DNA from: an uncultured Candidatus Saccharibacteria bacterium
GTDB lineage: Bacteria > Patescibacteriota > Minisyncoccia > Phycocordibacterales > 2-02-FULL-43-11
DNA length: 64,000 nucleotides
NCBI GenBank assembly: GCA_964348785.1
Contig: CAYGDO010000001.1
Span: 21,724-85,723 of the forward strand
Direction: 5' to 3'
Of the stretch, positions 10,121 to 63,722 are shown one piece after another; the stretch's first letter is position 1, and each line of letters begins with the position of its first letter. The notes under the pieces are model-generated. The model did not search any database. It was given only the letters and a program-made list of their open reading frames with translations, and was not told where the DNA came from. Both the position numbers and the translations under genes were made by a program.

Positions 10121-11107
10121 CTATTTTGCTTTGGCGATAAATTTTCTGTTTAAATAAACAGTCATGTAGCCAACACCAATAACCAAAAAACCAATTAGGA
10201 TAAGAGCAAGAGACCAATTTATTGAATCACGGAAAAATCTCGATGTCAGTTTGATAATATGCCCGACTAGAAAACCTGAGCTCAAAACAAGCATTATTCC
10301 GCTTCTCAAAAATACACTAGCGTAAAAAGCACCAAATAAAATAAGGATGAAAATAAAATCAAACGAGCCTCCAAAAGCAATTCCCGATCCTAAAACGGCC
10401 AGAGTCCCAAGCCCGTAAAAAATATTCTGAACAATTTTTCTCTCCTTGTCGCCGATAGACGAATAATCGGCCCAAAGACGCTTGAAAGCATAAGCCAAAA
10501 AGATATAAGAAAAACCAAGAAGCATAGTGGCCCACTTAACCAAATCACCATCAAAATCAGAAAAATTAAATATCTTTGAAAGCAAGGCGTAGTATGCCCA
10601 AGTTAAAAAACCGATAACGGAAACAAAAAGAATACTTTTCTTACTTATATACATAGCAACACCAAATATGATAGACAAAATGATTGCCGTGAAAAAATTA
10701 CTTTGCCAATTAAAACTAACTGACATTTCTTTGAGTAAAACAAAAGCACCTATCGGAGCAAGAATTACTGAAATGCCAAACATCACGTTGGACATAATAG
10801 AGTGCTCATTATCCCTTACCAAAAGACCTGCAACATAACAAACAAAAGCCACACCCAATGTTGATAATAACCTACCAACGGCACCGATATCGTTCCAATT
10901 TTGTGCAATCAACGTAATGACTCCAATTACAGCGATAATTCCACCTATAAGATAAAAAAGGTTTGTTAATTTTTTACCAAAAGAAACAGGCTCAAAATTA
11001 TCAGATTCTAAAATTTCATGATTTAAAAATCCAAGTAACTCCTCTCTGGAAACGTTTCCCCCTTGGAGTTCAGAGCTAATCAGAGAAAATAGTTGTTTTT
11101 TATCCAT
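10121..11107 (-). CDS. polytopic membrane protein, hypothetical
   Basis: 328 aa, about 8 hydrophobic helices. Confidence 0.5.
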   Translation of the reverse strand: MDKKQLFSLISSELQGGNVSREELLGFLNHEILESDNFEPVSFGKKLTNLFYLIGGIIAVIGVITLIAQNWNDIGAVGRLLSTLGVAFVCYVAGLLVRDNEHSIMSNVMFGISVILAPIGAFVLLKEMSVSFNWQSNFFTAIILSIIFGVAMYISKKSILFVSVIGFLTWAYYALLSKIFNFSDFDGDLVKWATMLLGFSYIFLAYAFKRLWADYSSIGDKERKIVQNIFYGLGTLAVLGSGIAFGGSFDFIFILILFGAFYASVFLRSGIMLVLSSGFLVGHIIKLTSRFFRDSINWSLALILIGFLVIGVGYMTVYLNRKFIAKAK

Positions 11108-11720: not shown

Positions 11721-12350
11721 TTATTTTTCACCAAACATCATCTTTAAGGTAGGCGGTAAATCTTCGGGTCTATCAATTATTTTATAAGGATTACCAAGTA
11801 AAAGAGTTTCTCTATTATGAAAACCCCAACTTACAGCCAACGATTTTACACCTGTTTCGGTGGCTTCTTTTACATCTCCCAAAGTATCAGTCACAAAAAC
11901 GCAATCGCGCGGACCAATATTATATTTAGCAAAAACCATTTTAATCTTTTCTACCTTACTTGTATGAACATCATTCCCCATAATTTCTGTAAAATGTTTT
12001 GCCAAATCAAATTTCACCAAAATTTCCAATAAAGGAGCAGAAATTGTAGAAGAAATGACAATGAGAATATAATCCTTAGAAATTTTTTCTATCGCCTGTT
12101 TCATGCCAGGAAAAACTTTAACCTGAGAACGCATTCTAGGAACATATTCATCAAAAAAATTTATATCATGACGACATTTATCAGAATGTTTTTCATCAAA
12201 CTTTTCCCAATCATTTATATTGCCTTCAAATCGCTTTTTGTGACCCTCAGCGGTGATATGTGGACACATCATTTGAGCAACACCAAGCGCAATGTTAAAA
12301 GAATCAACAATTACCCCATCAAAATCAAAAAGTATAAAAGATTTTTTCAT
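11721..12350 (-). CDS. HAD-superfamily hydrolase
   Basis: 209 aa; motif I FDFDGVIVDS, C-terminal VTDTLGD. Confidence 0.7.
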   Translation of the reverse strand: MKKSFILFDFDGVIVDSFNIALGVAQMMCPHITAEGHKKRFEGNINDWEKFDEKHSDKCRHDINFFDEYVPRMRSQVKVFPGMKQAIEKISKDYILIVISSTISAPLLEILVKFDLAKHFTEIMGNDVHTSKVEKIKMVFAKYNIGPRDCVFVTDTLGDVKEATETGVKSLAVSWGFHNRETLLLGNPYKIIDRPEDLPPTLKMMFGEK

Positions 12351-12466
12351 ATTATTTTTTTATCCAATTTTTTGACAAATTAAGAATCCGACACCTGCCA
12401 TTAAATCCTTTATTATCAATGTATTATAACAATTTTCCGCTTATTCACATCAATATATTAAATACC

Positions 12467-12495
12467 ATTGACACTATTAAATTGACGTGGTAATT
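12467..12495 (+). promoter_or_regulatory. sigma70-like promoter TTGACA-N17-TAATTT driving GC-rich cassette gene 1 (contains internal TTGAC direct repeat)
   Basis: cattgacactattaaattgacgtggtaattta; near-identical copy at 13287-13315. Confidence 0.55.
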
Positions 12496-12541
12496 TACTC
12501 TCTAACTTGCCCAACGCGGGCGAGAGTACACCAAGAATCAA

Positions 12542-13159
12542 ATGAGCACACAGGCAAAAACCCCGGAAACCCCGACTCCCAACGCCAAACCCGAACCGCC
12601 GAAGGCCTCCGTGCCTCCGCCGCTACCGAAGCCGTCACTCGAGCAGGTCTTCACGACCCGCCTCGACGCGATCTTCGCAGGCCAGCGGACCCCCGAAGCG
12701 GAGCTGTTCGAGCCCCTCGAAAGGCTCGACCCCAGAAAGCACGAGATCATCGGGATCGTCACCGACCAGAAGAGCCGGGAGCTCTTCTCCCTGGCCCGGC
12801 GACTGGAGGAAGAGCAGAAAGGTGTCCCTCTGGCCCGCAAGCCCGGACAAATCCCCCAACACGAGACCGATGTCGCGACGATCAACAATCAGCGCAAAAC
12901 GGTCTTGAGCCTCTTCTGGCATCATGCCAAAGCAACGGGCATCAAGGCGGGAACGCCCACCGACATGTCGATTGGGATCGTGCAGGGATGGAAACTGGTC
13001 ATTGCTCCCAGTGAGGGAGAAGTCCTCGGTGGACTCGTCGAAATCATGGGCATGGGGCTTCCTCCCGGGCTCCTCGACCACCTCCGTCGCGGTCAAGACG
13101 GTGATCCCGGCGACGACCGCCGGCCCAGCAGGGGCTTCGGTAGCCCCGAAGGCGACTAA
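12542..13159 (+). CDS. GC-rich Pro-rich hypothetical protein, paralogue 1 of tandem cassette
   Basis: 205 aa; shares RLDAIFAGQRTPEAELFEP / DQKSRELFSLARRLEEE block with paralogue 2 (RLAAIFTGATTPKEDLFEP / DQRSRELYSLAQLLKEE); flanked by promoter and terminator on + strand. Confidence 0.55.
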   Translation: MSTQAKTPETPTPNAKPEPPKASVPPPLPKPSLEQVFTTRLDAIFAGQRTPEAELFEPLERLDPRKHEIIGIVTDQKSRELFSLARRLEEEQKGVPLARKPGQIPQHETDVATINNQRKTVLSLFWHHAKATGIKAGTPTDMSIGIVQGWKLVIAPSEGEVLGGLVEIMGMGLPPGLLDHLRRGQDGDPGDDRRPSRGFGSPEGD

Positions 13160-13188
13160 ACCCGCCTCGCTCACCTCGACCCCCTCAC

Positions 13189-13222
13189 GCGCAGCGTCCT
13201 CCCTGGACACTGCGCTTTTTTT
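13189..13222 (+). terminator. rho-independent terminator (GCGCAGCGTCC-TCCC-TGGACACTGCGC + T7)
   Basis: hairpin plus U-run; near-identical copy at 14147-14180. Confidence 0.7.
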
Positions 13223-13286
13223 ATTCAAAATTTTAAATACCCTTCAAAATATTTTTTACTCATTATAATCTCCATATTTTCCATCA

Positions 13287-13315
13287 TTGACACTATCAAA
13301 TTGACGTGGTAATTT
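13287..13315 (+). promoter_or_regulatory. second copy of cassette promoter TTGACA-N17-TAATTT
   Basis: catcattgacactatcaaattgacgtggtaattta. Confidence 0.55.
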
Positions 13316-13376
13316 ATTTTCACTTGGCCAATGGTGGTCAAGAGTACACACAAGAACCAAATCATCAGGCAAAACC

Positions 13377-14114
13377 ATGAATCCTCAACACGAGACACCG
13401 CCCGACAGCGCCAGTGCCGTCCCGAACGAAGTGCCCCCGCCGACCGAAGGCGAGCAACAACAGGGACTTCCTCCTGTGATCGGCCCGGAACTCACCGCCG
13501 CACCGCCCGAACCCCAGGTCGCCGCTGAAGGAAACGATGCACCCCCGACCACGAAACCGGCGCCGGAGACTCAGCCGGCACCCTCGCTGGCGTGGGTCTT
13601 CATGAATCGCCTGGCCGCGATCTTCACGGGAGCAACCACCCCGAAAGAGGACCTGTTCGAGCCGATCCAGGACTACGGCTTCGACCGAATCGACGGACTT
13701 GAATTCGCCGGCGTCATCCACGACCAGCGGAGCCGGGAGCTCTACTCCCTCGCACAGCTCCTCAAGGAAGAACGGGGCTCCCTCCGTCAACCCCGCAAGT
13801 CGAAAGAGGTCAAAGACCACGACCTGCGGAGTGCGATTCTCCAGGAGCAAGAGAAACTCGCCATGGCACTCTTCGTCCAAGCGGTCAAAGCCGAACTGCC
13901 GAAGGCCGACGTTAACGACCTCACTATCGCTGTGTTCGAGGACTGGCGAGTCGGCGTCGCAAGGCAAGACAATCAGGATGGTGGTTTCCAGTCCCGTCTC
14001 GCCGAGGCCATCGGCCTTCCGCCGGAGCTCATCGCCCATCTCAGTCGCCGTTCGCGCGACGAAGACCCCCACGCTCGCGAAGAGCGACTCTACCCCGGTG
14101 GCGGACGCGGTTGA
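13377..14114 (+). CDS. GC-rich Pro-rich hypothetical protein, paralogue 2 of tandem cassette
   Basis: 245 aa; paralogous to 12542-13159 at protein level with synonymous-type nucleotide divergence. Confidence 0.55.
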   Translation: MNPQHETPPDSASAVPNEVPPPTEGEQQQGLPPVIGPELTAAPPEPQVAAEGNDAPPTTKPAPETQPAPSLAWVFMNRLAAIFTGATTPKEDLFEPIQDYGFDRIDGLEFAGVIHDQRSRELYSLAQLLKEERGSLRQPRKSKEVKDHDLRSAILQEQEKLAMALFVQAVKAELPKADVNDLTIAVFEDWRVGVARQDNQDGGFQSRLAEAIGLPPELIAHLSRRSRDEDPHAREERLYPGGGRG

Positions 14115-24865: not shown

Positions 24866-26347
24866 CTAAGATAATTTCCGAACAATTCCCTTATCAGCAT
24901 CAACTTCTATTATATCGCCATCTTTCAAAACTTTAGTAGCAATTTTAGTGCCAATAATACAAGTTTTATTTAATTCTCGACTGACGATCGCTGCGTGGCA
25001 AGTAATACCACCTTCATCAGTCACAATTGCACCTGACCTTTTCATAAGCGGAACAAATTCTGGCCTTGTCATACCAGTAACCAATATATCACCGTCTTTA
25101 AAATGTCCACCGAGTTCTGCATCAAGAATAATTCGTGCGATACCACGCACCTTACCCTTACAAGCAATCTGTCCTTTTATGATGTTTTCAACAGCCGGCT
25201 GTTCCAATTTAATATGATGCTCATTAATTTCTTTTTTTATTTCAACAAAATTATCATAATTAATTTTTATATCACCGTTAAACAACATATATATTATGTA
25301 ACCATCCGCCCTTTTTTCAATTTCTTTTTTAATAGATTTTATAAACTCAACACCTTTTGTAAGTTCCACAGTTGGCAAGACAAATCCAATATATTTTGGA
25401 TCAATACTTGCCTCTTTAAATATCCTTTCGGCTATACGCCAATTTACAGTTAAAACTTTAGCGAAAAAGTTTTTACGACGATCACGCACACGCATTACAG
25501 TCTGACAATAATCAGCAATGACTTTTTCTTCATCTAATAATTCTTTATACCACTTATTATATTCTTCAAGATTTTTTTTCTCATTAAAAAGAATCTCTTG
25601 CCTTTTATTTTCTGCATCAACTGTGTTTATGTCTCCGTATTTACTCATTAAACGTTTCCGAACTTCTGGCAACAATTGCACATCCCTGTAAGTTGCATAA
25701 AAGAATTGGCAATCTTCAGCTATCTCGGAAATCGTTTTACCTTGCGCAAGTAATGACAACCCAAAATATTCTTGCTCTCCGTCAAAAGATCTAAATATAG
25801 GCACCGTGGCTTTTTCCCATAATTTATCTAAATTTTCTTTTGTGATTGGATACTTTTTAGAAGAAAGAACGTTTGCGCACAATTCTTTATCAAAATAAAG
25901 CGAAAAATATAAAGATGAGTTAGAAATGTGAATTAAGTCAAAAGCTTTTTGTATCAATGGGTAAAGCACCTCTATGTTTTCATTCTTTATACGTTCATAT
26001 GTATATTCTTTATATATTTCATCAACCTGTCTTTCATTTTTGAGAAAATTATCTTCAAGATTTTTTGTAAAAAAACGATCATCCAAATAACGATTAAAAC
26101 CCTCTATTGAGTCATTAACAATTGGGTTCGTAGGTAAATATACCGTCAAGCTTTCTCCGTCATTTATATTTAACGCGGAATAATTAAAATGTTTCGTATA
26201 CGGTGTAAGTTTAAAATATTTCTCAGTATTAAATCCTGAACTAAAATAAAAAAGCCCGCAATTATTCATGGGCCATATTTTACCGGTACCCACATCCCCT
26301 AAAAAACCTTCTAAAATCTGTTGTTCTGTATTTCTTGAAATCATCAA
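24866..26347 (-). CDS. PEP-utilising-enzyme mobile (phosphohistidine swivel) domain protein with novel N-terminal domain (paralogue G)
   Basis: 493 aa; C-terminus [46 protein letters not shown] matches PEP-utilizers mobile domain with catalytic His. Confidence 0.7.
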
Positions 26348-34511: not shown

Positions 34512-34523
34512 CCCCGTTAGAAG
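34512..34523 (-). repeat. CTTCTAACGGGG motif copy flanking GC-rich island at 34.1-34.5 kb
   Basis: accccgttagaagtaggacacgg. Confidence 0.55.
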
Positions 34524-53438: not shown

Positions 53439-53450
53439 CTTCTAACGGGA
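53439..53450 (+). repeat. CTTCTAACGGGA motif copy (upstream of GC-rich histidine phosphatase)
   Basis: same motif at 54395-54407 (+), 63738-63746 (+, partial), 54295-54307 (-), 34512-34523 (-), degenerate 61642-61653. Confidence 0.6.
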
Positions 53451-53594: not shown

Positions 53595-54236
53595 ATGAAC
53601 ACCACACCCAAAATCTGGGAATTGGTCAGTGTCCTTATCCTCGCCCGGCACGGCAAAGCCGTCGCCGCCGAAGGTCGCCCAGACGCCGAACGCAAGCTCA
53701 ACGAACTCGGGATCGCCCAGGCCAACGCCCTCGGCTTCTCCGTTCAAAAGCTCGAGATCGACATCGTTCTGTCATCCCCGCTCAAGCGGGTGGTGAGCAC
53801 CATGCGCACCGCGACCAACGACACTATCCCGATCCATCCGGTCGCCGAACTCACCTGCTCGGATGATCCGATTGACCCGATCCAGATCATGTGGGGCAAG
53901 CTCGGCAATGTCCCCATCTCTCGATACTTCGCTGAGGCCGCCGGCGAATATCTCAAGGTCTGGGGGCAAACAGCCCTCGGTGCCATCATCCGCGAACTCC
54001 AAAATGGCGGACACGACCAGAAGGTTCTCGTCGGCGGACATGCCGTTCTCCAGAATGCCCTCTTATGGGCAATCTCCCAGTCAGTCTCCGAGGACTGCTG
54101 GGCGGCGGCAGGAATGGACGAGGTCAATGAAATAGCCTGCCAAAACCTTCTCGGAGAAGGCGAGGCCTTCGTCCTGAGATTCCCATCACATGAGGCCGGT
54201 GTCACCACATGTGAACACCTCCGCCCCATGGCGTAA
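53595..54236 (+). CDS. histidine phosphatase superfamily protein (SixA/PGM-like), GC-rich
   Basis: 213 aa; LILARHGKA (RHG), SSPLKRVVSTM, VGGHA motifs; TTGACT-N17-TATTGT promoter-like upstream. Confidence 0.6.
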   Translation: MNTTPKIWELVSVLILARHGKAVAAEGRPDAERKLNELGIAQANALGFSVQKLEIDIVLSSPLKRVVSTMRTATNDTIPIHPVAELTCSDDPIDPIQIMWGKLGNVPISRYFAEAAGEYLKVWGQTALGAIIRELQNGGHDQKVLVGGHAVLQNALLWAISQSVSEDCWAAAGMDEVNEIACQNLLGEGEAFVLRFPSHEAGVTTCEHLRPMA

Positions 54237-54265
54237 CTCCGCTCACCCAGTTCTTTCTCTCAAGT

Positions 54266-54292
54266 CCCGATCCGCATCGGGGCTTTTTTATT
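54266..54292 (+). terminator. rho-independent terminator
   Basis: CCCGAT-ccgc-ATCGGGG + CTTTTTTATTT. Confidence 0.6.
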
Positions 54293-54294
54293 TA

Positions 54295-54307
54295 CCCCGT
54301 TAGAAGC
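54295..54307 (-). repeat. CTTCTAACGGGG motif copy (inverted) just after the histidine-phosphatase terminator
   Basis: ccccgttagaagc. Confidence 0.6.
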
Positions 54308-54394: not shown

Positions 54395-54407
54395 GCTTCT
54401 AACGGGG
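54395..54407 (+). repeat. GCTTCTAACGGGG motif copy at the downstream boundary of the swivel-domain array
   Basis: gtgtcccgcttctaacggggt; close match to reverse complement of 34512-34535. Confidence 0.6.
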
Positions 54408-54440: not shown

Positions 54441-55727
54441 TTAACTACTTTTTATAATTTTTACTACACCCTTCTCCGCATCAACCTCTACCAAATCACC
54501 ATCTTTAAGAACTTTCGTGGCAATTTTGGTACCAATGATACAAGGCTTTTTCATTTCTCTAGCGACAATCGCAGCGTGAGAAGTTATCCCTCCTTCATCC
54601 GTGATAAAAGCTGAGGCTTTATTCATACCAATAATATACGAGGGCGCAGTAGTTGGAGCAACCAAAATATCTCCTTCTTTTACTTTTTCAATTTCATAAG
54701 CAGTCATTACAATTTTCACCGTCCCCCTTAAAACACCCTTATACGCAATTGCACCTTTTAACTCTTTAACATCGGCATAATCAGAAATAGCTAAAATCGG
54801 GCCTTCAAACAAAACTTGCTCCTCACCCATACCTACACAAGATACATTTTTATAAAACTTTAATTCACCAGAAATTAAACTATCGAAATCATACCACTTC
54901 AAATCTTCGAATTTAATTTTATATAAACTAGCGACCTCCTTTAAAATAGGCCTTAATCTATACATAAATTCCCAAAGGACATCCGTCCTAAATGTCCTGA
55001 AATAGACTAATTCTTGAGTGGCGACCACTAGATCTGATAATTCATCTGGTACATTCGGTCGATTAAATTTTTCTGTTATCCCATCTTTTTTAAGCCTTTG
55101 CCTTTCGGATGATAATTCCTCAATACTGTAAGGTTCGCCAAAGCCATCCCTTATTTTTATCCAGCCAAATTCTTGTTGAATTTTCTCCAAATCATCATCC
55201 CCCAAAAGAGCTTCTAAAAAATATGAATGCTTATTTTTCTTAACAGGATAACTAACATCACCAATAAATTTATTTATATCGCCTTGATAATATTTTGGTA
55301 TCTCTAATTTTAATTTATTTAAGTATAAATGTTCGAAAGCGTGTGTTAGCCAGGTATAAGCTATATTTTCACGAATCAATTTTCTAATTTCCATTAATTT
55401 ATCAGGGACCCGATCAGATGAATCTAAAATAGATTTTACCCTTTTTTTACCACTCTCATAAAATTTTTCACAATTACTTACAACCTCAAACAAATCAATT
55501 TTATTTTTGATTAATAAATCAACCTGTATATCCAAGACCTTGAGTGATTTATAAAAAGCACCGTTTTGAAATAAAAAAGCTTTTTGTTCCCAGTTTAAAC
55601 CAATTGTTTTAAAAGTCTGATAGCCATTTGCCATAAGAGAAAGCACAAAAGCTCCAAATGGACGATCCGCCCAATGTTCCCAATCATTGTAATCTAAAAC
55701 TTTCTTTTTTATTTCCTCTTTTGTCAT
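54441..55727 (-). CDS. PEP-utilising phosphohistidine swivel-domain protein, paralogue A (no ATP-grasp domain)
   Basis: 428 aa; C-terminus [46 protein letters not shown]. Confidence 0.7.
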   Translation of the reverse strand: MTKEEIKKKVLDYNDWEHWADRPFGAFVLSLMANGYQTFKTIGLNWEQKAFLFQNGAFYKSLKVLDIQVDLLIKNKIDLFEVVSNCEKFYESGKKRVKSILDSSDRVPDKLMEIRKLIRENIAYTWLTHAFEHLYLNKLKLEIPKYYQGDINKFIGDVSYPVKKNKHSYFLEALLGDDDLEKIQQEFGWIKIRDGFGEPYSIEELSSERQRLKKDGITEKFNRPNVPDELSDLVVATQELVYFRTFRTDVLWEFMYRLRPILKEVASLYKIKFEDLKWYDFDSLISGELKFYKNVSCVGMGEEQVLFEGPILAISDYADVKELKGAIAYKGVLRGTVKIVMTAYEIEKVKEGDILVAPTTAPSYIIGMNKASAFITDEGGITSHAAIVAREMKKPCIIGTKIATKVLKDGDLVEVDAEKGVVKIIKSS

Positions 55728-57175
55728 TTATTTAAAATCCTAACAACTCCACTGTTTGCGTCAACCTCCACCAAATCCCCGTCTTTAAGAACTTTCGTAG
55801 CAATTTTAGTGCCAATGATACAGGGTTTATGCATTTCGCGAGCCATGATGGCAGCATGGCAAGTAATCCCCCCTTCATCAGTAACAAATGCTACAGCTTT
55901 TTCTAAAGCAGGCATAAATGATGGAATAGTCATTGGAGCAACAACCACATCTCCTTTTTGGACTTTAACATTATCTGCGTCAGTTTTAAGAATTTTTACA
56001 ACCCCAGTTGCAAATCCTTTGTACGCAATTTTTCCCTTTAGTTCCTTTTGGTCATCATTTTGTCTTTTCAAAAAAGAATGGTTTTCGATAAATTTTTCAA
56101 CCTCACCCCCTTCCAAAACTACCGGTTCACCTAATCCGTAATAAATCAAAAAATTCTTTTTTCTTTCTTCAATATTTTTTTTATAATCTAATTTTCCTCG
56201 TAAAGCCAAAACTATTTCAGGAACACATAAATTGAGCATATTGTTGTAAGAAACATTAAGCACAAAGGCCACCTTAGACAGCAAAGGTCTAATGTGATAA
56301 CCCGATTCATGAAAGAAATCAGCGCGTTGATTCCTGACAAAAATTATTTCTCTAATTTTATCAACTATTTTTTTATCATCTACACTAAAATTTTTTGTTA
56401 AAACTTTAATTTTTTCTTCTTTTTCGAGTCGTTTATTCAATCTTTTTTCTAATTCTTTTTTTGCTTCTTCTTTAGAAATATTGTTAAGTCTATTCAATAC
56501 ATCCTCAGTCCTCCACGGCTCACCCAAGAAAAATCTCAAAGAAATCCAACCATATTTTTTAGCATGTTTACTGGCCAGTTCTTCTTTATTTAAAACATCA
56601 CTCGAAGCCAAAATTAAAAAATCTTTCTGTTCTTCTTCAACAACAGTATCTTTATTTGATACTGAAATGGCACTTAGTAATTCTTCAAACTCCTTTTCAT
56701 CTTTTGAATATTTTTTAACAAGACTCTTTGCAATATCAGTGGTCGGACCTTCAAATTGAGTTATGTTGTAAAAAACCGTGTACTTTATTTCTGTATCAAA
56801 AAACTCTTCCATCAACCTTGCTAATTCCTCATGATCTTCAATAAACAATGATTTTGCCGATAATTCCTTACATCTTTCCTGTAACTCATTGCCGAAAACC
56901 ATACATTTTTTAACCAACTCACTGACATAATCTAAGCCCTTAGAAGAAAATTTAAATTTTATTTCTTCTTCCTGCTTTTTTAAATCATTAATAAATTGAT
57001 AGAAAAAATAATTAACTTGTAACCATCTAACCAAAGTGTCTAAATCAAAAATTTCCTTTGTGGCTCTTTTATCCAACATTCCCCCAATTAAAAGATGGGA
57101 AATCATATAAGGCTCGATTCTCTCTCCAAAATAAACAATGTCCTCCTTTTTTAAATTTTCCAACTCTTTTGTCAT
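55724..57175 (-). CDS. PEP-utilising swivel-domain protein, paralogue B
   Basis: 483 aa; C-terminus [46 protein letters not shown]; 4-nt overlap with A. Confidence 0.7.
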   Translation of the reverse strand: MTKELENLKKEDIVYFGERIEPYMISHLLIGGMLDKRATKEIFDLDTLVRWLQVNYFFYQFINDLKKQEEEIKFKFSSKGLDYVSELVKKCMVFGNELQERCKELSAKSLFIEDHEELARLMEEFFDTEIKYTVFYNITQFEGPTTDIAKSLVKKYSKDEKEFEELLSAISVSNKDTVVEEEQKDFLILASSDVLNKEELASKHAKKYGWISLRFFLGEPWRTEDVLNRLNNISKEEAKKELEKRLNKRLEKEEKIKVLTKNFSVDDKKIVDKIREIIFVRNQRADFFHESGYHIRPLLSKVAFVLNVSYNNMLNLCVPEIVLALRGKLDYKKNIEERKKNFLIYYGLGEPVVLEGGEVEKFIENHSFLKRQNDDQKELKGKIAYKGFATGVVKILKTDADNVKVQKGDVVVAPMTIPSFMPALEKAVAFVTDEGGITCHAAIMAREMHKPCIIGTKIATKVLKDGDLVEVDANSGVVRILNK

Positions 57176-58632
57176 TTATTTAAAATCCTAACAACTCCCT
57201 TCTCCGCATCAACTTCTACCAAATCGCCGTCTTTAAAAACGTCAGTGGCGTTATTTATACCTACAACACAAGGAATCCCTAATTCACGAGAAACAACGGA
57301 CACATGAGCAGTAATGCCTCCATCTTCAGCCACCACGCCAGAAGCCTGGATCAAAACTGGCATAAAATCCGGACTCGTATTGGCCGCTATTAAAATATCA
57401 CCCTTATTAAACTTCTTAAAATCTTCCCCAGACAATACAACCTTAGCTATTCCTTTTGCAAATCCTTTTGAGGCCACTCTGCCTTTAAATTCTTTCTTAC
57501 CAATATCCTTATTTATCAAAAACCTTTCTTCAAACTTTTTAGCATCTTTTCCTAAAAGAATATTCAATTTGTTAGGAACGGCAATAACAATATTATATTT
57601 CGATCTTTCTTTGACCAAACTTTCGTCAGGCATCTGTCCACCTAGCGCAAATTCGATTATCTCCCTAGGATGTAAATCTTTTATAAAACCTATCGAGACA
57701 TCCTTCCTCCTTGCCAATTCCCCAAACAAAGGTTCGGCATAATACTCCAGCTTGTTTATACAAGATTTGTAATAATCTTTAAGATATGTAGCGAAAGATG
57801 CAATTCTTGCCAATTCTTTACCCTTTTCATCAAGTGATTTAACTAAATTTTCATAAGTTTTTTTATCATCAACAATTTTTTTCAAAAAATTATTTCTCTT
57901 TTGCGTAGGATTATCTTTTAATAAACCATCCAGCGTATTTTTGTAATCATTATATTCTTTAGGCTTTTCATCAAAATAACCCATAACGCCCCAAGCATAT
58001 TTACCAACAATTTCCGCAATTTTTTCTTTAATAGATTGAGAATTTATATCTTCTTTTTTTTCAAAAATAGAGGATGCTAGGTTGAGCAAATCTAATTCTT
58101 CAGATACAGATAACGTTGGCTTAATGGGTTGGGCTAAATTTATAATTATCTGATCAACATCAGATTGATTTAAAAAATGTTCCCTAATCTTTTTAACAAC
58201 AACTCTATCCAAAATTCTTAAAGTGCCCGCCGTCACCATAAATTCCCAATAAAACGTAAAATAACTATCGAAGACTTCAGCCAAATCATCATCTGTTAAT
58301 TTATTTAAATCCTTCAAAAATATTTTCTTTACGCCTTGTTCCATCTTTTCGGTAAGATATTTTTCCATTTCTTCCAATAACCCTTTATCTTTCCAAAAAC
58401 GATCAAAAACTTTTTGAAAATCTTCGTCGCTTAAAACAAAAATCCATTTTACATAGTGTTCGTTCATTAAAGAAATAATAAAACCTGTATGGGGCCAAAT
58501 TGTATGTATCTGTGAATATTGTGTAGTTATTAAATAGCATGGGTAAAAATAAGAAACACGGCCACCTTCTGAGTAAAGCTGTTTATTTTCAAAAATATTC
58601 CAATCAATTTTTTCATCTCCTTCAAAATTCAT
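57172..58632 (-). CDS. PEP-utilising swivel-domain protein, paralogue C
   Basis: 486 aa; C-terminus EDGGITAHVSVVSRELGIPCVVGINNATDVFKDGDLVEVDAEKGVV. Confidence 0.7.
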   Translation of the reverse strand: MNFEGDEKIDWNIFENKQLYSEGGRVSYFYPCYLITTQYSQIHTIWPHTGFIISLMNEHYVKWIFVLSDEDFQKVFDRFWKDKGLLEEMEKYLTEKMEQGVKKIFLKDLNKLTDDDLAEVFDSYFTFYWEFMVTAGTLRILDRVVVKKIREHFLNQSDVDQIIINLAQPIKPTLSVSEELDLLNLASSIFEKKEDINSQSIKEKIAEIVGKYAWGVMGYFDEKPKEYNDYKNTLDGLLKDNPTQKRNNFLKKIVDDKKTYENLVKSLDEKGKELARIASFATYLKDYYKSCINKLEYYAEPLFGELARRKDVSIGFIKDLHPREIIEFALGGQMPDESLVKERSKYNIVIAVPNKLNILLGKDAKKFEERFLINKDIGKKEFKGRVASKGFAKGIAKVVLSGEDFKKFNKGDILIAANTSPDFMPVLIQASGVVAEDGGITAHVSVVSRELGIPCVVGINNATDVFKDGDLVEVDAEKGVVRILNK

Positions 58633-58645
58633 AAAATTTACTTAA

Positions 58646-60040
58646 TTACAATGAATTGTTTTTAAGAATTGTGACCACACCCCTCTCCGCATCAACTTCC
58701 ACCACGTCACCGTCCTTAAGAACTTTAGTGGCGATTTTGGTGCCAATGATACATGGCTTTTTCATTTCCCGTGCAACAATAGCGGCATGAGAACTTATGC
58801 CCCCTTCATCAGTCACAAATGCCCCGGCAATTTTCATAAAAGGTAAAAATTCTGGTCTGGTCATGCTTGTAACTAAAATCTCTCCTTCTTCCATTTTTTT
58901 AGCATCTTCAGAGTGTGGATTCAAAATAACTCTCACTCTTCCTTTAACTAATCCCTTACAAGCCACAGAGCCTTTCAAATCAATATTTTTAGACTCTTGA
59001 GTATTTAAAACCTGTTCAACCATTTTCCAACATTTTTGACCTTCTTCAGAAAAATAATAATTATACTCTCCGTCTTCTGTCATGTGAACAAAAAAGCCTT
59101 CCTCTATTCTCTTTTTCAAATCATTTTCAGCTACAGTAGCAAAAAATAATTCCTCTACTCTATCAGGAATAAGACCGTTTAATAATTTTAAATCAATTTT
59201 CTGTCTTTTAGCTACCTCCCTTAAAATTTTCAACATTCCAAACAAACCAACGTAATTCAGTCTTTTTCTTTCATCACGCCATTTGGTTAATAAAACAAAT
59301 ACATCATATGGATTTTTATCAAGACCATATTTCTTTAAAATTAACTTCTTGTCAGGAGCTTCGATAATTTTTGATTCATCTAATTTTTGTAATTCAAGAT
59401 CAATAAAACCATCATCCACTTCAACAAAAGAAGAATAGTCTATTCCGTACCAGAAAAAAAGTTTCTTTAATTCATCTCTTGTTATTATCCCATTCTTTAA
59501 GTCAGACAATTTCTTATCCCATAAAGTAATAAATGATGGCTCATCTGGAATAAGAAGACTTTGTTTTTCTTCAATACCAAATTTATAGTTATTAGAAATC
59601 TTTTCTATCTCTTCGTGATCAATCCCTATATCAAAAGAATCTATAAAAATTCCACATGCCCACATTTCAAGATCCTTCTTATAAATTTCGTTATATCTTT
59701 TTATAAGATCTTCAATGTCTATAGAAGATAAATCAGTTTTGTATATTTCATACGATAGTAGTGTTAACTCTTTATCTAAAATATTCCAATCTTTTAGCCA
59801 ATCATCTACCCCTCCATCCTCAAATTTATTTAAAAAAGATTCTGATACTTTTCTCCATTGATCTTCATAAAAAGCAGCCCATAGATAATTATTTTTATAA
59901 AACAAAAAACCCTCACCCCAACTAAAAGGGAGATACTTCTGCATCATCTTACCTGCCGTCATGTACGGTAAAATAACTTGAAAGGCCCCGCATTTTCCTT
60001 CTTGTTTATAAAGTTTTCTATTGGGGTCTATTTTTATCAT
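58646..60040 (-). CDS. PEP-utilising swivel-domain protein, paralogue D
   Basis: 464 aa; C-terminus [46 protein letters not shown]. Confidence 0.7.
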   Translation of the reverse strand: MIKIDPNRKLYKQEGKCGAFQVILPYMTAGKMMQKYLPFSWGEGFLFYKNNYLWAAFYEDQWRKVSESFLNKFEDGGVDDWLKDWNILDKELTLLSYEIYKTDLSSIDIEDLIKRYNEIYKKDLEMWACGIFIDSFDIGIDHEEIEKISNNYKFGIEEKQSLLIPDEPSFITLWDKKLSDLKNGIITRDELKKLFFWYGIDYSSFVEVDDGFIDLELQKLDESKIIEAPDKKLILKKYGLDKNPYDVFVLLTKWRDERKRLNYVGLFGMLKILREVAKRQKIDLKLLNGLIPDRVEELFFATVAENDLKKRIEEGFFVHMTEDGEYNYYFSEEGQKCWKMVEQVLNTQESKNIDLKGSVACKGLVKGRVRVILNPHSEDAKKMEEGEILVTSMTRPEFLPFMKIAGAFVTDEGGISSHAAIVAREMKKPCIIGTKIATKVLKDGDVVEVDAERGVVTILKNNSL

Positions 60041-60073
60041 TTTTCATTTAGCAGACAAAGTCTTAATCAGTCT

Positions 60074-61573
60074 TTAATCTTCTTCGTATCTTTTAATAAT
60101 CTTTACAACACCTTCATTTACATTAACTTCTACCAAATCCCCATCTTTCAAAACTTTCGTGGCAATTTTCGTGCCGATAATGCAGGGAATTCCCAACTCT
60201 CTTGAAATAATCGCTGCGTGGCAAGCAATACCGCCTTCGTTTGTAATAATCGCTTTTGCTTTTCTCATTAATGGCACGAACTCAATTCTGGTCATTGATG
60301 TAACCAGAATCTCTCCGTCTTCAAAAATATCCTTGGAGGGATCAAGTACTACTCTGACTTTTCCTGAGAAATTACTTACACCTCCTCTACTTGCAACTTG
60401 TCCTTTTACAAAACCCTCGAATTTAAAAGCTGTCGCTACTGAAAAAAGCTCCTTGGCTTCGCCATCATAGAATATTTTCGCATTTTGTCCTTTTTCCCAT
60501 ACCATAAAAACTCCCGCTTTTCTTCTTCTTATCTCTTCCACATTTAATTTATATTCACTTTCTAAACATTTACCGAACTCATCAAAAGTATAAACCGCTA
60601 AATCCTCATAAGGAATATTGGATACTTTAGCAGTATGATCCATAGTCATTGCCAAGTAATAAAAAAATCTCATCATTCCGATTTTTCTTAAATCAATCCA
60701 CTGAATAACAAGTTTCGCAAAAGCTAAATCTCTTTTATCTATTTCGGTTAGCTCTATTGTACCCAGAATTTTTTTACGATTTTCATGTAAGACATCAAAA
60801 TTTTGTCTATTTTTTTCTATTTCCAATTCAATGCCCTCTTTTTTATTCTTAGAAATTTCAACGTAAACTTCTTTTAGAATTTTTTCCGGAGTAGTTTCTT
60901 CAGCCTTATAAAAATCACTTCGGAACCAAAAATACTTATCAATGTAACTTTTAATATTTTCTTTAAGAATTTTTCCAGAGGATACTTCAATGCAAATCCT
61001 CAAGAAATCCTCTCTTTCAAGATTGAAAACGGTTGGTTCTTCCGGATGTGCCAAAGTATTAAATATCTCATCTGCCTTATTAATTTCTAAATTATGACGT
61101 TTGGCAAAATGAGGAACTATTTCCTTATTTATAATAGCCCCCTTATCCTCCCAAAGAGAACAATAATGAAACCACTCTCCTGAAAGAATCGAAAATTTTT
61201 TATAAAAATCAAAAATTTTCTCTTTTGAATAAGTCGCGCCATTTTTAAAATATTCTTCCCAAGCTTTTTCTATCTCCTTTTCCAAAAAAATCTGACGTTC
61301 TATCATTTTATCTGCGCTCTTTGGATCACGTAAATAATCGTCGTATACTTTTTTAGCAATATCCTCAATTATCTTCTTAGCATTAAATTGATGGAACGAA
61401 CCCATCTTATCAAAAGAGAAAAAAGCGAAACCTGGACTGTATAGAACACCATGAAGCGAATCAGATTCTGTGTAAGACTTGAAAGCCATATCAAGCGCCA
61501 CCAAAGAGACGCCGGCAATAGCATTATCTAACTCATTATTTTTGAGATAGTTTATTATTTCGCCTTTTGTCAT
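60074..61573 (-). CDS. PEP-utilising swivel-domain protein, paralogue E
   Basis: 499 aa; C-terminus [46 protein letters not shown]. Confidence 0.7.
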   Translation of the reverse strand: MTKGEIINYLKNNELDNAIAGVSLVALDMAFKSYTESDSLHGVLYSPGFAFFSFDKMGSFHQFNAKKIIEDIAKKVYDDYLRDPKSADKMIERQIFLEKEIEKAWEEYFKNGATYSKEKIFDFYKKFSILSGEWFHYCSLWEDKGAIINKEIVPHFAKRHNLEINKADEIFNTLAHPEEPTVFNLEREDFLRICIEVSSGKILKENIKSYIDKYFWFRSDFYKAEETTPEKILKEVYVEISKNKKEGIELEIEKNRQNFDVLHENRKKILGTIELTEIDKRDLAFAKLVIQWIDLRKIGMMRFFYYLAMTMDHTAKVSNIPYEDLAVYTFDEFGKCLESEYKLNVEEIRRRKAGVFMVWEKGQNAKIFYDGEAKELFSVATAFKFEGFVKGQVASRGGVSNFSGKVRVVLDPSKDIFEDGEILVTSMTRIEFVPLMRKAKAIITNEGGIACHAAIISRELGIPCIIGTKIATKVLKDGDLVEVNVNEGVVKIIKRYEED

Positions 61574-61670
61574 AAGTTATTTTTTAGAATTGTGACTACC
61601 CCCTCTCCGCATCCATCCCAGTAGCAAAAATCAGAATTTCGCTACGGGACAAGCCTCCACCAATATATCA

Positions 61671-63722
61671 TTACTTACCCACTCTTTTAATTATTTTGAC
61701 AATGCCCTCGTTTGCATTAACTTCGACCTCATCACCGTCTTTCAAAACCTTCGTAGCAATTTTGGTGCCGATAATGCAAGGAATTCCTAATTCTCTAGAA
61801 ACTATTGCTGCATGAGATATTATTCCTCCCTCATCAGTTATGATTGCCCCAGCTTTTTTACAAGCCAATATCATTTCAGGGCCAGTAGAGCCCGCCACCA
61901 ACACTTCACCCTCCTTCATCATTTCTATTTCCGTCTTAAAATCAGTATCTGCGCTAAACATTATCTTTTTAACTTTCCCTTTATAAATTCCTTTATGTGC
62001 GACATTTCCCTTAAAACTCTCTAAATCTTTATCAACTTCTAAAAACTGCTTATAAAGAATTTCTGCTTCTTCACCCACGACATCTTCACCATTAGAAAAC
62101 AAGCCACGAACAATTGCGCCAGATCTTTTCGAAACTGAGATTTTGCGTCCACGTAACATTTCCACCAGTTCAGTGTATTTATAGTCCTCCACAGACAATT
62201 CAAGTGTAAGGCGTCTGGAAATTTCATCTAAAAAGGGCTTGAGAATATTAGGATCATACATTGTAAAATTAAGAAGTTTACGATATTCAAATTTTAATTC
62301 ACCAGCTTGTTTCAATTTTTTCTCTAAAGCAGGGTCTTTTTGCAACTTTGCAGCCACCAAATCTAAACTGTGATATTCCAAAGGAAAATAATTACGCCAC
62401 ATCTCTATAGACAAGATGGCTGATTTTTCCAAGAACTCTGCCAGTTCTTCATTCGAAAGCTTTTCCGTTTTTATCGTCAGTAATTCACTTATACTTTTTT
62501 CAAATTTCACCATCTTCTGTCTTAAGTCTGTCGTAAACTCTTCATATCTCTTAATAAATAAATTTAAACCTTCCTCCCCGAGTCTCTCGTGTTCAACCTT
62601 ACTAACAAAAAGACTGTTCGAACGCTCTTTGATAAAGAGGATAAAATCCTTATCTGCATAACCCGAATAGAAATGAGCGTCAGAAAAAATATACGGCACA
62701 CCAAACGTCCAAAGAAAATCATAATCTTTTACACTAGGAAAATTTTTAGGCTTTTCTTCTAAAATATCAATTTTCTTAGACAAAGTCGTAATTGGTCTCG
62801 ACTGAACAATATAGAATTTACCAGCCTCGTATGCCCATTCAATATCGCAAGGAAAACCATAGTGCTTTTCTATGCCGAGAATAATTTCCGACAATTCCAA
62901 AATTTGCTTTTCGCTTAATTTTTGCTTTTCGCCCTCAACGGCGGAAATATCTCTCCATTCATTTCCACCACCTACTTTCCTGAATAAGCCACGTTCCTGA
63001 ACGGAAATGTTTGAGTCAATAATTCTTCTTGGTTCTTTTTCTACAACATAAGAATCTGGCGTAATCTGTCCAGACACAATCGCTTCGCCAAGACCAAACC
63101 CGGCTTCAATAATCATCTGATTATAATCCTCTGTTACAGGGTGAACAGAAAAAGCGATTCCAGACACTTCGGATTCAACCATTTTTTGCACCACCACTGC
63201 CACAGAAATTTTTGTTTTATGTAAATCTTTTTCAAAACGATAAAAAATAGCACGAGGAGTAAACAAAGACGCCCAACACTTCCTCACATTTTTCAAAAGA
63301 TCAGACTCTTCTGTATTCAAAAAACTATCAAGTTGCCCTGCCCAAGCAGCAGAACTAGAATCTTCTGCCGTAGCAGAAGACCGAACAGCGACAAACCTAG
63401 CGCCTAACGCCTTAAAACCTTTCCTAATTTCCTCTCTAATATCTTCAGGCATTTCTTTTGCCAAAATCAAAGATTGAATTTGTTCTGATGCGTTTTCAAC
63501 TGTATGCATTTCAGCATGTTTTACCTTGTGAAGGATTGAATCTATTTCAATATTTAAATCTGTTTCTTCGCAAAATCTTTCAAAAGCACCAGCAAGAACA
63601 ACAAAACCCGGTGGAACCGGAATCCCCGCATTGGTCATTTCTCCAAGCGACGCACCTTTTCCTCCCGCAATTTCTGCATCATTTTTCGAAAGCTCTTTGA
63701 ATTCCTTGGTGAATTTTTGCAT
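61671..63722 (-). CDS. PEP synthase/rifampicin-phosphotransferase-like enzyme: N-terminal PEP/pyruvate-binding ATP-grasp domain (PPDK_N-like) + middle domain + C-terminal swivel domain, paralogue F
   Basis: 683 aa; N-terminus EIAGGKGASLGEMTNAGIPVPPGFVV... (PPDK_N), C-terminus [46 protein letters not shown]. Confidence 0.75.
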   Translation of the reverse strand: MQKFTKEFKELSKNDAEIAGGKGASLGEMTNAGIPVPPGFVVLAGAFERFCEETDLNIEIDSILHKVKHAEMHTVENASEQIQSLILAKEMPEDIREEIRKGFKALGARFVAVRSSATAEDSSSAAWAGQLDSFLNTEESDLLKNVRKCWASLFTPRAIFYRFEKDLHKTKISVAVVVQKMVESEVSGIAFSVHPVTEDYNQMIIEAGFGLGEAIVSGQITPDSYVVEKEPRRIIDSNISVQERGLFRKVGGGNEWRDISAVEGEKQKLSEKQILELSEIILGIEKHYGFPCDIEWAYEAGKFYIVQSRPITTLSKKIDILEEKPKNFPSVKDYDFLWTFGVPYIFSDAHFYSGYADKDFILFIKERSNSLFVSKVEHERLGEEGLNLFIKRYEEFTTDLRQKMVKFEKSISELLTIKTEKLSNEELAEFLEKSAILSIEMWRNYFPLEYHSLDLVAAKLQKDPALEKKLKQAGELKFEYRKLLNFTMYDPNILKPFLDEISRRLTLELSVEDYKYTELVEMLRGRKISVSKRSGAIVRGLFSNGEDVVGEEAEILYKQFLEVDKDLESFKGNVAHKGIYKGKVKKIMFSADTDFKTEIEMMKEGEVLVAGSTGPEMILACKKAGAIITDEGGIISHAAIVSRELGIPCIIGTKIATKVLKDGDEVEVNANEGIVKIIKRVGK

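What the first reader, a model, noticed from the sequence alone, without database searches (positions are those of the whole stretch)
54441..61660. Evidence of gene conversion/recombination among array paralogues: near-identical 3' ends and a paralogue 3'-end remnant in the E-F spacer
At nucleotide level the last 150 nt or so of genes A, B, D and G are much more similar than their protein-level divergence elsewhere would predict (e.g. ...ctttaagaactttcgtrgcaattttrgtgccaatgataca... shared). The A/B and B/C junctions share an identical 24-nt string (tttatttaaaatcctaacaactcc).

The E-F intergenic spacer contains agaattgtgactaccccctctccgcatcca (61586-61615). This is a non-coding remnant of the 3' end of a D-like copy (agaattgtgaccacacccctctccgcatcaac at 58662-58693).

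Together this suggests ongoing concerted evolution or cassette shuffling of the variable N-domains onto a homogenised swivel domain.
Basis: seen in the sequence. Interest (0 to 1): 0.5.

Follow-up and report, generated by a model that had tools for sequence, protein, structure and literature searches.

The report
Recombining tails in a dikinase-module gene array
Six tandem genes (plus one dispersed copy) of a candidate-phyla-radiation bacterium share a conserved 3' "swivel" end mainly because the protein is conserved. That shared end is also a real but occasional recombination site, which has produced a collapsed gene remnant, short copied tracts and strain-to-strain gain or loss of array members.

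Summary
All quoted strings exist at or within 3 nt of the stated coordinates.

**Array.** It lies on the minus strand of a Patescibacteria contig. F carries an ATP-grasp domain, a middle domain and a phosphohistidine swivel. E, D, C, B, A and the dispersed copy G carry a rifampin-phosphotransferase-like substrate domain plus swivel.

**3' similarity.** This is mostly protein conservation:
- The motif [23 protein letters not shown] recurs in arrays of many other genomes.
- Window paralogues are not each other's nearest relatives.
- Orthologues keep their own swivel signatures.
- Synonymous codons are near saturation (46% identical against 42% expected).

**Recombination at these ends is nevertheless real:**
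- The spacer remnant is far beyond chance (0 of 2000 shuffles). It looks like a collapsed paralogue whose stop overlaps E's start.
- The B/C identity runs 35 nt (global p about 0.005 in the first of two runs of a home-made test).
- The 3' ends show a modest within-genome excess of synonymous identity (0.52 against 0.41, p about 0.001).
- A 97%-identical strain carries a D/B chimera lacking C and most of B, with the breakpoint in the conserved motif.
- That strain also has 2-5-fold higher synonymous divergence in the A and E swivels (about 1.5-fold in D) and a D-like tract in gene A.

**Verdict.** Sporadic short-tract conversion and unequal crossover, not a homogenised domain.

The parts
61671..63722 (-). 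Gene F, 683 aa: ATP-grasp (PPDK_N) + middle domain + C-terminal phosphohistidine swivel. It is the only ATP-grasp domain of the array.
   Evidence: Pfam PF01326 (1.6e-97) and PF00391. Best solved relatives are PEP synthases and rifampin phosphotransferase 5FBS/5HV1.
61574..61670 (-). F-E spacer, 97 nt. It reads best as the collapsed remnant of a lost paralogue 'X'. An ATG overlaps F's TAA, and 'TTGGTGGAGG' (61654-61663) matches the ..DLVE.. codons of gene B. A hairpin follows (61615-61650), then a frameshifted tail DAERG/VVTILKNNL* (61577-61613). The tail's TGA overlaps E's ATG.
   Evidence: Three-frame translation and junction view. Alignment to D's tail 34/38, 0 of 2000 shuffles as good. Coordinates. 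Alignment to hairpin+tail modules of other genomes.
60074..61573 (-). Gene E, 499 aa: divergent substrate-type domain + swivel.
   Evidence: PF00391. Residues 287-493 align to rifampin phosphotransferase 660-866. Orthologues of 75% and 51% identity in L084 and L086 keep the E-type swivel signature.
58646..60040 (-). Gene D, 464 aa. Its tail (58656-58693, ..DAERGVVTILKNNSL*) is the closest relative of the spacer remnant. The stretch around 58689-58770 is the D-side crossover zone relative to strain L088.
57172..58632 (-). Gene C, 486 aa, with the most divergent swivel (GGITAHVSV..). It is absent from strain L088 and from species L090.
   Evidence: nearest swivel is L074_3, not a window paralogue.
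55724..57175 (-). Gene B, 483 aa. Only its tail type survives in L088, attached to D. The B-side crossover zone is around 55758-55840.
54441..55727 (-). Gene A, 428 aa, last gene of the array.
   Evidence: The L088 orthologue differs at 1.8% of positions in the N-domain but 6.0% in the swivel, all synonymous there.
55716..55750 (-). B|A junction tract, 35 nt, identical to the C|B junction (GGAGTTGTTAGGATTTTAAATAAATGACAAAAGAG).
   Evidence: Run of 14 polymorphic sites, global permutation p = 0.0046 for the coding part alone; p = 0.083 on a re-alignment that cut the last two codons.
57164..57198 (-). C|B junction tract, 35 nt, identical to the B|A junction.
24866..26347 (-). Gene G, 493 aa, a dispersed seventh paralogue with the same swivel tail motif and no ATP-grasp domain nearby.
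   Evidence: tblastn with the swivel of A; ORF listing.

Best explanation
**What the locus is.** It is a one-to-many version of the rifampin-phosphotransferase-like small-molecule dikinases. One ATP-grasp domain is present (in F). Six proteins consist of a very divergent substrate-type domain plus a phosphohistidine swivel domain.

**Why the 3' ends look alike.** The last 35 or so residues of the swivel ([30 protein letters not shown]) are under strong purifying selection in every module, here and in arrays of many other Patescibacteria and DPANN genomes. I infer, but have not shown, that this is because every swivel must dock on the same ATP-grasp domain. That selection accounts for most of the 3' nucleotide similarity.

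**What recombination adds.** The conserved stretch is the only sequence the paralogues share at DNA level, so it serves as an occasional substrate for homologous recombination. There are two outcomes.
- Short conversion tracts of tens of nucleotides, for example at the B|A and C|B junction.
- Unequal crossovers that remove or add whole modules and leave chimeric tails.

Other deletions leave orphan tails in spacers. The 97-nt F-E spacer is such a collapsed paralogue. Its tail is the closest relative of D's present tail.

**Net result.** Module turnover and patchy exchange, not a homogenised domain.
For: **Domain make-up.**
- All seven proteins carry the PF00391 swivel; only F carries PPDK_N.
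- A profile of the modules aligns to rifampin phosphotransferase 5FBS residues 559-866, covering substrate-binding and swivel domains.
- Relatives L084, L089, L090 and L091 have a stand-alone ATP-grasp gene next to such modules. This matches the published two-component dikinases HpeHI, CreHI and PpsAB (PMC12167813).

**Purifying selection explains most of the similarity.**
- N-domains are 21-24% identical.
- The tail motif recurs in arrays of dozens of other genomes.
- Window swivels have nearer neighbours in other genomes than in the window.
- Orthologue pairs keep gene-specific swivel signatures.
- Identical codons at identical residues: 539 of 1169, against 495 expected from codon usage.

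**Recombination is real.**
- Remnant score 54 against a shuffle maximum of 39.
- 35-nt junction identity, global p = 0.0046 in the first run of the test.
- Within-window synonymous identity at the 3' end is 0.522, against 0.414 +/- 0.030 for sets of seven swivels from different genomes (p = 0.0013). Upstream it is 0.419 against 0.369.
- Strain L088 is about 97% identical. Its D carries a B-type tail, C and the body of B are missing (a 2931-nt difference), and the switch of informative sites falls in the KKPCIIGTK stretch.
- L088 against the window: swivel dS 0.32, 0.27 and 0.11 against N-domain dS 0.068, 0.17 and 0.075 for A, E and D. Pooled differences are 5.1% against 2.2%, Fisher p = 4e-5, with swivel dN close to 0.
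- In gene A of L088, 7 of 8 consecutive strain differences equal the window's D.
- In relative L084 the A and B orthologues share 63 of 69 nt at the extreme 3' end. That compares with 0.62 upstream and 0.72-0.78 to their window orthologues.
- Orphan tails and collapsed genes recur in other arrays.
Against: - Only one conversion tract in the window passed my permutation test, and only in the run that kept the last two codons (p = 0.0046). On a re-alignment that cut them it gave p = 0.083.
- Part of the 35-nt tract, ATGACAAAAGA, is a start motif (MTKEE) conserved in other genes and genomes (L084, L090, L091). Only the 24 coding nucleotides of the tail are informative.
- The polarity of the C+B difference is unresolved. 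L090 (about 81% identical) also has D with a B-type tail directly followed by an A-like start. The short form could therefore be ancestral and the long form an insertion.
- L088's B-type tail is only about 87% identical to the window's B tail.
- No relative with an intact gene between F and E was found.
- The docking explanation for tail conservation is inference only.
- The strain comparisons rest on short metagenomic contigs.
Confidence: 0.72

Rival explanations
1. Strong ongoing concerted evolution. Frequent gene conversion keeps the swivel 3' ends of all array members homogenised while the N-domains diverge.
For: - Large contrast between N-domain identity (about 22%) and 3'-end identity.
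- Modest within-genome excess of synonymous identity at the 3' end.
- Two Val codons are GTT in all seven copies, although GTT is only 49% of Val codons in these genes' N-domains.
Against: - Synonymous codons are near saturation: 46% identical against 42% expected, and 53% against 44% in the last 30 codons.
- Swivels from other genomes are as close or closer.
- The motif is conserved family-wide.
- Orthologues retain their own swivel signatures. C's unusual swivel has its nearest relative in another genome.
Confidence: 0.08
2. No recombination at all. Every similarity is purifying selection plus shared ancestry, the spacer match is a chance or ancient leftover, and the strain differences are assembly errors.
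For: - Most of the 3' similarity is indeed explained by protein conservation.
- The start part of the junction tract is a conserved motif.
- Of 21 pairs, 20 show no significant tract, and the B-C pair passed in only one of two runs.
Against: - The remnant is far beyond chance.
- The D/B chimera appears in two independent assemblies of different samples, L088 and L090.
- The window arrangement is identical in three assemblies.
- Paralogue identity across the breakpoint region is below 80%, with no long exact repeat for an assembler to collapse.
- Between strains, swivel dS exceeds N-domain dS with dN near 0, and there is a paralogue-matching tract.
Confidence: 0.07
3. The spacer 'remnant' is not a neutral scar. 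It is part of a conserved hairpin-plus-second-tail module with a function of its own. Candidates are an RNA processing or attenuation element between F and E, or a DNA hairpin that acts as a preferred breakpoint for module gain and loss.
For: - The same layout (own tail, hairpin-forming linker, second tail) occurs in L084 (twice), L034 (three times, in frame), L024 (in frame), L055, L013 and L047.
- Stems differ but stay complementary: 3 of 9 pairs have changes on both sides, 88.9% of cells are paired, and the covariation score is 0.294 against 0.155 +/- 0.039 in shuffles, 0 of 500 as high.
- The 5' flank GAGCGGAGTCC is shared by distant genomes.
Against: - The window instance scores only 14.8 bits (E = 2.7) with the model.
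- The spacer's folding energy is ordinary, z = -0.79.
- In L034 and L024 the element is simply translated as a Ser/Thr/Gly-rich loop insertion in the last beta-turn. Conservation may therefore be at protein level, with the palindrome a by-product of codons such as AGTACC..GGTACT.
- One L084 copy has a stop inside the hairpin.
- Only 8 sequences were available for covariation.
- No Rfam family matches.
Confidence: 0.15

Closest known systems
Two-component small-molecule dikinases HpeHI, CreHI and PpsAB, and single-chain rifampin phosphotransferase (RPH)
   Same: The domain set is the same: ATP-grasp, RIF-binding-like substrate domain and a swivel with the catalytic His in a GGxxxH motif. A-E and G have the HpeH-type layout (substrate domain + swivel). 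F has the RPH-type layout. Relatives carry a stand-alone HpeI-like ATP-grasp gene.
   Different: Here one ATP-grasp domain sits with five to six highly divergent H-type modules in one array, plus one elsewhere in the genome. The published systems are one-to-one pairs. The substrates are unknown, and trans-phosphorylation is inferred, not shown. In the window the ATP-grasp is fused to its own module (F) rather than free.
Unequal crossing-over and short-tract gene conversion in tandem paralogue arrays (general phenomenon; own knowledge)
   Same: Breakpoints lie in the only conserved stretch. The products are chimeric genes, copy-number differences between strains, and patches of paralogue-derived substitutions that raise divergence between orthologues.
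   Different: Exchange is too rare or too short to homogenise the repeats. Paralogues remain saturated at synonymous sites and cluster with their orthologues.
Rickettsia palindromic elements inserted in frame into protein-coding genes (own knowledge; literature lead only)
   Same: A short palindromic sequence lies inside a coding region. In some copies it is translated as a surface-loop insertion (L034, L024).
   Different: The element is much shorter (about 27-45 nt). It was seen only in swivel tails of this family, and there is no evidence of mobility or of copies elsewhere in these genomes.

Membership tests
PEP-utilising enzyme mobile (swivel) domain, PF00391 | Significant match to the Pfam model above the gathering score, with the catalytic His in a GGxxxH motif. 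| tested here: met
   All seven proteins score 81-96 bits (cut-off 23.1), and all have GGI..H.
Single-chain RPH-like small-molecule dikinase | ATP-grasp (PPDK_N) + substrate-binding domain + swivel in one polypeptide. | tested here: met
   Met for F only: PPDK_N residues 17-318, swivel 603-673, RPH hits 1.4e-76. A-E and G lack the ATP-grasp domain, so the feature is not met for them.
Two-component dikinase (HpeHI type), H component | RIF-binding-like domain followed by a swivel domain with conserved His, and no ATP-grasp. | tested here: met
   Profile of 13 modules aligns to RPH 5FBS residues 559-866 (E = 1e-30). E alone aligns to 660-866. Only the C-terminal ~200 residues of the N-domain could be aligned; the N-terminal half is unassigned.
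Two-component dikinase (HpeHI type), I component | Stand-alone ATP-grasp protein encoded next to the H component. | tested here: not met
   In the window the ATP-grasp is fused within F. It is stand-alone in relatives L084, L089, L090 and L091.
Two-component dikinase (HpeHI type), activity | ATP-dependent phosphorylation of the swivel His in trans and transfer to a small-molecule substrate. | not testable with these tools
   Needs biochemistry.
Concerted evolution by gene conversion | Paralogues within a genome are more alike than orthologues between genomes. | tested here: not met
   Nearest neighbours of window swivels are mostly in other genomes. Orthologue identity exceeds paralogue identity in the swivel upstream part.
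Concerted evolution by gene conversion | Synonymous sites homogenised among paralogues. | tested here: inconclusive
   Overall 46% against 42% expected. There is a modest significant excess at the 3' end only: 0.522 against 0.414, p = 0.0013.
Ectopic recombination among paralogues (conversion tracts, unequal crossover) | Discrete tracts or breakpoints, chimeric genes, and strain differences that match paralogues. | tested here: met
   B-C tract p = 0.0046 in one of two runs (0.083). D/B chimera in L088. D-like tract in L088 gene A, 7 of 8 sites. Swivel dS above N-domain dS.
Integron gene cassettes or diversity-generating retroelement | Integrase plus attC sites, or a reverse transcriptase plus template repeat, near the array. 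| tested here: not met
   Precomputed Pfam annotation of about 6 kb upstream and 5 kb downstream of the array lists no integrase or reverse transcriptase. The remnant is only about 40-90 nt. No dedicated attC or RT search was run.

The most novel reading that the evidence does not exclude
The conserved swivel tail, together with the hairpin-forming linker found next to orphan tails in several genomes, works as a built-in junction. Whole substrate-binding modules are gained, lost and swapped there between arrays and strains. Under this reading these tiny-genome organisms keep a recombining repertoire of small-molecule dikinase modules served by a single ATP-grasp domain. It would be a homology-driven cassette system for substrate range, not merely a decaying tandem array.
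Probability: 0.15. Interest if true: 0.7.

Novelty: new member of a known kind. Interest (0 to 1): 0.4.

Why it matters
The process itself, ectopic recombination in a tandem array, is ordinary. It matters here for two reasons.

First, it corrects an attractive but wrong inference. A conserved 3' end is not evidence of homogenisation. The decisive tests are synonymous sites, orthologues and close strains.

Second, it shows how a so far undescribed one-to-many array of rifampin-phosphotransferase-like modules turns over. These arrays are widespread in Patescibacteria and DPANN. Modules are removed or added at a breakpoint in the shared swivel tail, even between 97%-identical strains.

If the modules are detoxifying or scavenging kinases for different small molecules, this turnover would change the substrate range of organisms with very small genomes. 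I found no paper describing these arrays in the searchable library.

Tried and rejected
- **Metagenome scan with E** for orthologous arrays: no relatives found.
- **Upstream of the E orthologues in L084 and L086**: no remnant and no intact gene X. The lost-gene reading could not be confirmed by synteny.
- **Rfam on the whole window**: only two tRNAs, nothing in the array.
- **Promoter and terminator scan of the array**: counts at shuffle level.
- **Folding of the F-E spacer**: z = -0.79, not remarkable.
- **Strict no-mismatch tract test** (my own GENECONV-like script). It did not flag the x9/x11 tail in L084, although identity there is 63 of 69. The test is conservative.
- **First MAFFT alignment of the hairpin elements** misaligned two of six. 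I rebuilt it from four and then eight sequences.
- **An inference I withdrew.** From L088 I first concluded that the window's B|A junction had been overwritten very recently, because L088's junction differs in about 40 nt. L090 and L091 carry the window-type junction (AAATGACAAAAGAAGAAATAAAAAA). L088's junction is therefore the derived one, and the start part of the tract is a conserved motif.
- **Polarity of the C+B difference.** I first took it as a deletion in L088. L090 shows this is not settled.
- **DGR and integron readings**: considered and dropped, because no reverse transcriptase or integrase is annotated nearby.

Full report
**1. What is at the coordinates**

The region holds six co-oriented genes on the minus strand:
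- F 61671-63722
- E 60074-61573
- D 58646-60040
- C 57172-58632
- B 55724-57175
- A 54441-55727

All seven end in a PF00391 'PEP-utilisers' swivel domain. Only F also has the PPDK_N ATP-grasp domain.

The N-terminal 320-390 residues of A-E and G are only 21-24% identical to each other, where they align at all.

The window is part of a 222-kb metagenomic contig, and the array sequence is identical in three assemblies. Homologues of F place the organism among Patescibacteria.

**2. The observation**

Every quoted string is present. The spacer string is at 61586-61615. The D string starts at 58665 rather than 58662. The 24-mer is at 55727-55750 and 57175-57198, with none expected by chance.

- *The 24-nt identity is really 35 nt* (55716-55750 = 57164-57198). 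It runs from the last eight codons of B or C, through the ATGA stop/start overlap, into the first four codons of A or B. Identity breaks sharply on both sides.
- *The spacer match extends to a stop codon.* On the minus strand the spacer reads ..MDAERG, then a 1-nt frameshift, then VVTILKNNL*. D ends ..VDAERGVVTILKNNSL*. The remnant's TGA overlaps E's ATG, exactly like the B|A and C|B junctions.

The alignment to D's tail is 34 of 38 with one gap and scores 54. Dinucleotide shuffles of the spacer gave mean 18 and maximum 39. Random window pieces gave a maximum of 33. The match is not chance.

**3. Is the 3' similarity evidence of homogenisation? Mostly not**

- *Synonymous sites.* In a codon alignment of the swivel regions, the stretch [17 protein letters not shown] is conserved as protein in six of seven copies. 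Synonymous positions differ freely. At residues identical between two paralogues, the codon is identical in 539 of 1169 cases. Codon usage predicts 495. In the last 30 codons the figures are 254 of 482 against 213.5.
- *The motif is family-wide.* Of the 80 loci with an F homologue from other species, most show two to eight swivel genes downstream of the ATP-grasp gene. Their tails read ..[30 protein letters not shown].. again and again.
- *Nearest neighbours.* Over 95 aligned residues, window swivels have as close or closer relatives in other genomes (0.63-0.72 identity) than in the window. C's peculiar swivel finds its best match in locus L074.
- *Orthologues.* In the related genome L084 (E 75%, B 60%, A 49%, ATP-grasp 76% identical) and in L086 (E 51%), orthologues keep gene-specific swivel signatures. 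Examples are LMRKAKAIIT.EGGIACHAAI.SRELGIP for E and AREMHKPC for B.

The contrast between N-domain and swivel is therefore protein conservation, not a homogenised cassette.

**4. Recombination at these ends is nevertheless real**

*Within the window*
- A GENECONV-like permutation test that I wrote (shuffling polymorphic columns) singles out the B-C terminal tract. It is a run of 14 polymorphic sites, global p = 0.0046, not counting the part beyond the stop. On a re-alignment that cut off the last two codons, the same pair gave p = 0.083. No other pair is significant.
- Against a between-genome control (sets of seven swivels from different genomes with matched GC3), synonymous codon identity in the last 30 codons is 0.522 against 0.414 +/- 0.030 (p = 0.0013). 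Further upstream it is 0.419 against 0.369 (p = 0.02).
- Other arrays show the same 3' bias. This is a weak but consistent trace of exchange.

*Strain L088.* Searching D's N-domain found a 98%-identical protein on a JGI contig, L088.
- L088 matches the window at about 97% through E, D and A, but its order is E - D* - A.
- D* follows D up to the codons ..REMKK and then carries a B-type tail (..KDGDLVEVDANNGVVRILSK*).
- C and the body of B are absent. The homologous positions in D and B lie 2931 nt apart.

*Divergence between the two strains.*

| Gene | Swivel dS | N-domain dS |
|---|---|---|
| A | 0.32 | 0.068 |
| E | 0.27 | 0.17 |
| D (up to the crossover) | 0.11 | 0.075 |

- Swivel dN is close to zero. 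Pooled differences are 5.1% against 2.2%, Fisher p = 4e-5.
- The most conserved protein segment is thus the most divergent DNA between near-identical strains. That is what import of paralogue sequence produces.
- In L088's gene A, 7 of 8 consecutive strain differences equal the window's D. Outside that roughly 50-nt stretch only 1 of 11 does.

*Relative L084.* The A and B orthologues share 63 of 69 nt at the extreme 3' end, against 0.62 identity upstream and 0.72-0.78 to their window orthologues.

**5. Caveats I had to accept**

- A second, more distant relative, L090 (about 81% nt identity), also has D with a B-type tail directly followed by an A-like start. L090 and L091 carry the window-type junction AAATGACAAAAGAAGAAATAAAAAA. 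Three consequences follow.
  - The start part of the 35-nt tract is a conserved motif (MTKEE...).
  - L088's own junction is the derived one.
  - I cannot tell whether the short form arose by deletion, twice, or whether the long form arose by insertion. B-then-A order in L084 favours loss.
  - Either way the breakpoints sit in the conserved swivel tail.
- L088's B-type tail is only about 87% identical to the window's B tail. This fits the raised swivel divergence but is not proof of simple orthology.

**6. The spacer remnant**

- An ATG overlaps F's TAA.
- TTGGTGGAGG (61654-61663) matches the ..DLVE.. codons of B.
- A hairpin lies at 61615-61650.
- The frameshifted tail lies at 61577-61613.

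I read this as a collapsed paralogue X that once sat between F and E, translationally coupled on both sides. No relative with an intact X was found.

Orphan tails are common in this family. L084 has two. L008, L017, L024 and L060 have one each. L089 has the converse, a relic of an ATP-grasp 5' end in front of a stand-alone swivel.

**7. An unexplained extra**

In W, L084 (twice), L055, L034, L013 and L047 the second tail is preceded by a hairpin-forming linker with conserved flanks. In L034 and L024 the linker is in frame. It is translated as a Ser/Thr/Gly-rich insertion in the last beta-turn (..VEVDA-MPSTGTGAG-ADKGIV..) or as a linker between two tails.

Across eight instances the stem keeps pairing through changes on both sides in 3 of 9 pairs. 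The covariation score is 0.294 against 0.155 in shuffles, 0 of 500 as high.

The window copy fits the model only weakly (14.8 bits), and the spacer's folding energy is ordinary. I cannot decide whether this is a nucleic-acid element, a protein loop whose codons happen to be palindromic, or a preferred breakpoint.

**8. What the genes probably do (partly inferred)**

- F matches PEP synthases and rifampin phosphotransferase along the ATP-grasp and swivel.
- A profile of 13 modules aligns to rifampin phosphotransferase residues 559-866, covering the substrate-binding and swivel domains.
- The published two-component dikinases HpeHI, CreHI and PpsAB split the enzyme the same way, into an ATP-grasp protein and a substrate-domain-plus-swivel protein (PMC12167813).
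- Relatives of this array carry a free ATP-grasp gene.

The likely mechanism is as follows. The single ATP-grasp domain phosphorylates the swivel His of each module in trans, and each module passes the phosphate to its own small-molecule substrate. A shared docking partner would explain the extreme conservation of the tail. This last step is inference.

**9. Verdict**

Recombination among the paralogues' 3' ends is real and recent enough to distinguish strains.
- The process is a known kind. The array in which it acts appears undescribed in the literature I could search.

Noticed in passing
Loci L004-L083 (e.g. L035, L078, L011, L043): Arrays of two to eight swivel-domain genes downstream of an ATP-grasp (PPDK_N) gene are common in Patescibacteria and DPANN archaea. 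In L078, L011, L028 and L004 several modules run on in one open reading frame with no stop between them, giving giant multi-module proteins.
   Followed up: partly
window 61615-61650; L084 10887-10954 and 13710-13777; L034 11963-12025, 13430-13492 and 16813-16874; L024 5025-5090; L055 10944-11011: A conserved hairpin-forming linker lies next to a second swivel tail. It is in frame in L034 and L024 and non-coding elsewhere. Base changes in the stem are compensatory. Its function is unknown.
   Followed up: partly
L084 1158-2102; L089 9047-9991; L090 819-1769; L091 836-1786: In four relatives the ATP-grasp domain is a stand-alone 314-316 aa gene ending at ..SRPITTL... In L090 and L091 it is about 91% identical to the first 316 residues of F. 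The fused and split forms therefore interconvert among close relatives.
   Followed up: partly
L089 5190-5619 and L060 about 10950-11020: L089 has a stand-alone 112-aa swivel gene preceded by a relic of an ATP-grasp N-terminus (ELIRNFSKLGKDDAG..). L060 has a stand-alone ATP-grasp gene followed by an orphan tail KDGDLVEVDAEKGIVKVIK*. Both look like internally collapsed F-type genes.
   Followed up: no
window 54295-54307 and 54395-54407: A perfect 13-nt inverted repeat (CCCCGTTAGAAGC / GCTTCTAACGGGG), with copies 100 nt apart, lies in the spacer between gene A and the convergent His_Phos_1 gene. The core CCCGTTAGA also occurs just upstream of F (63738), at 53441 and at 34513.
   Followed up: no
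L088 3450-3950 versus window 53850-54300: Downstream of gene A the 97%-identical strain drops to about 68% identity and carries a different reverse-strand gene. This is a second structural difference at the array's edge.
   Followed up: no
L090 1771-3154: The D orthologue of this relative is called as two overlapping ORFs (135 and 344 aa). It is either frameshifted or a sequencing error.
   Followed up: no
window 12001-14000: A 2-kb stretch with 52% G+C sits in a window that averages about 36%. No rRNA or other Rfam family was found there at gathering thresholds.
   Followed up: no
L084 2540-2600: A long perfect palindrome (CTATTCTAGTATTCTATAGAATACTAGAATAG) lies just upstream of the E orthologue. 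It occupies the position where the window has the remnant.
   Followed up: no
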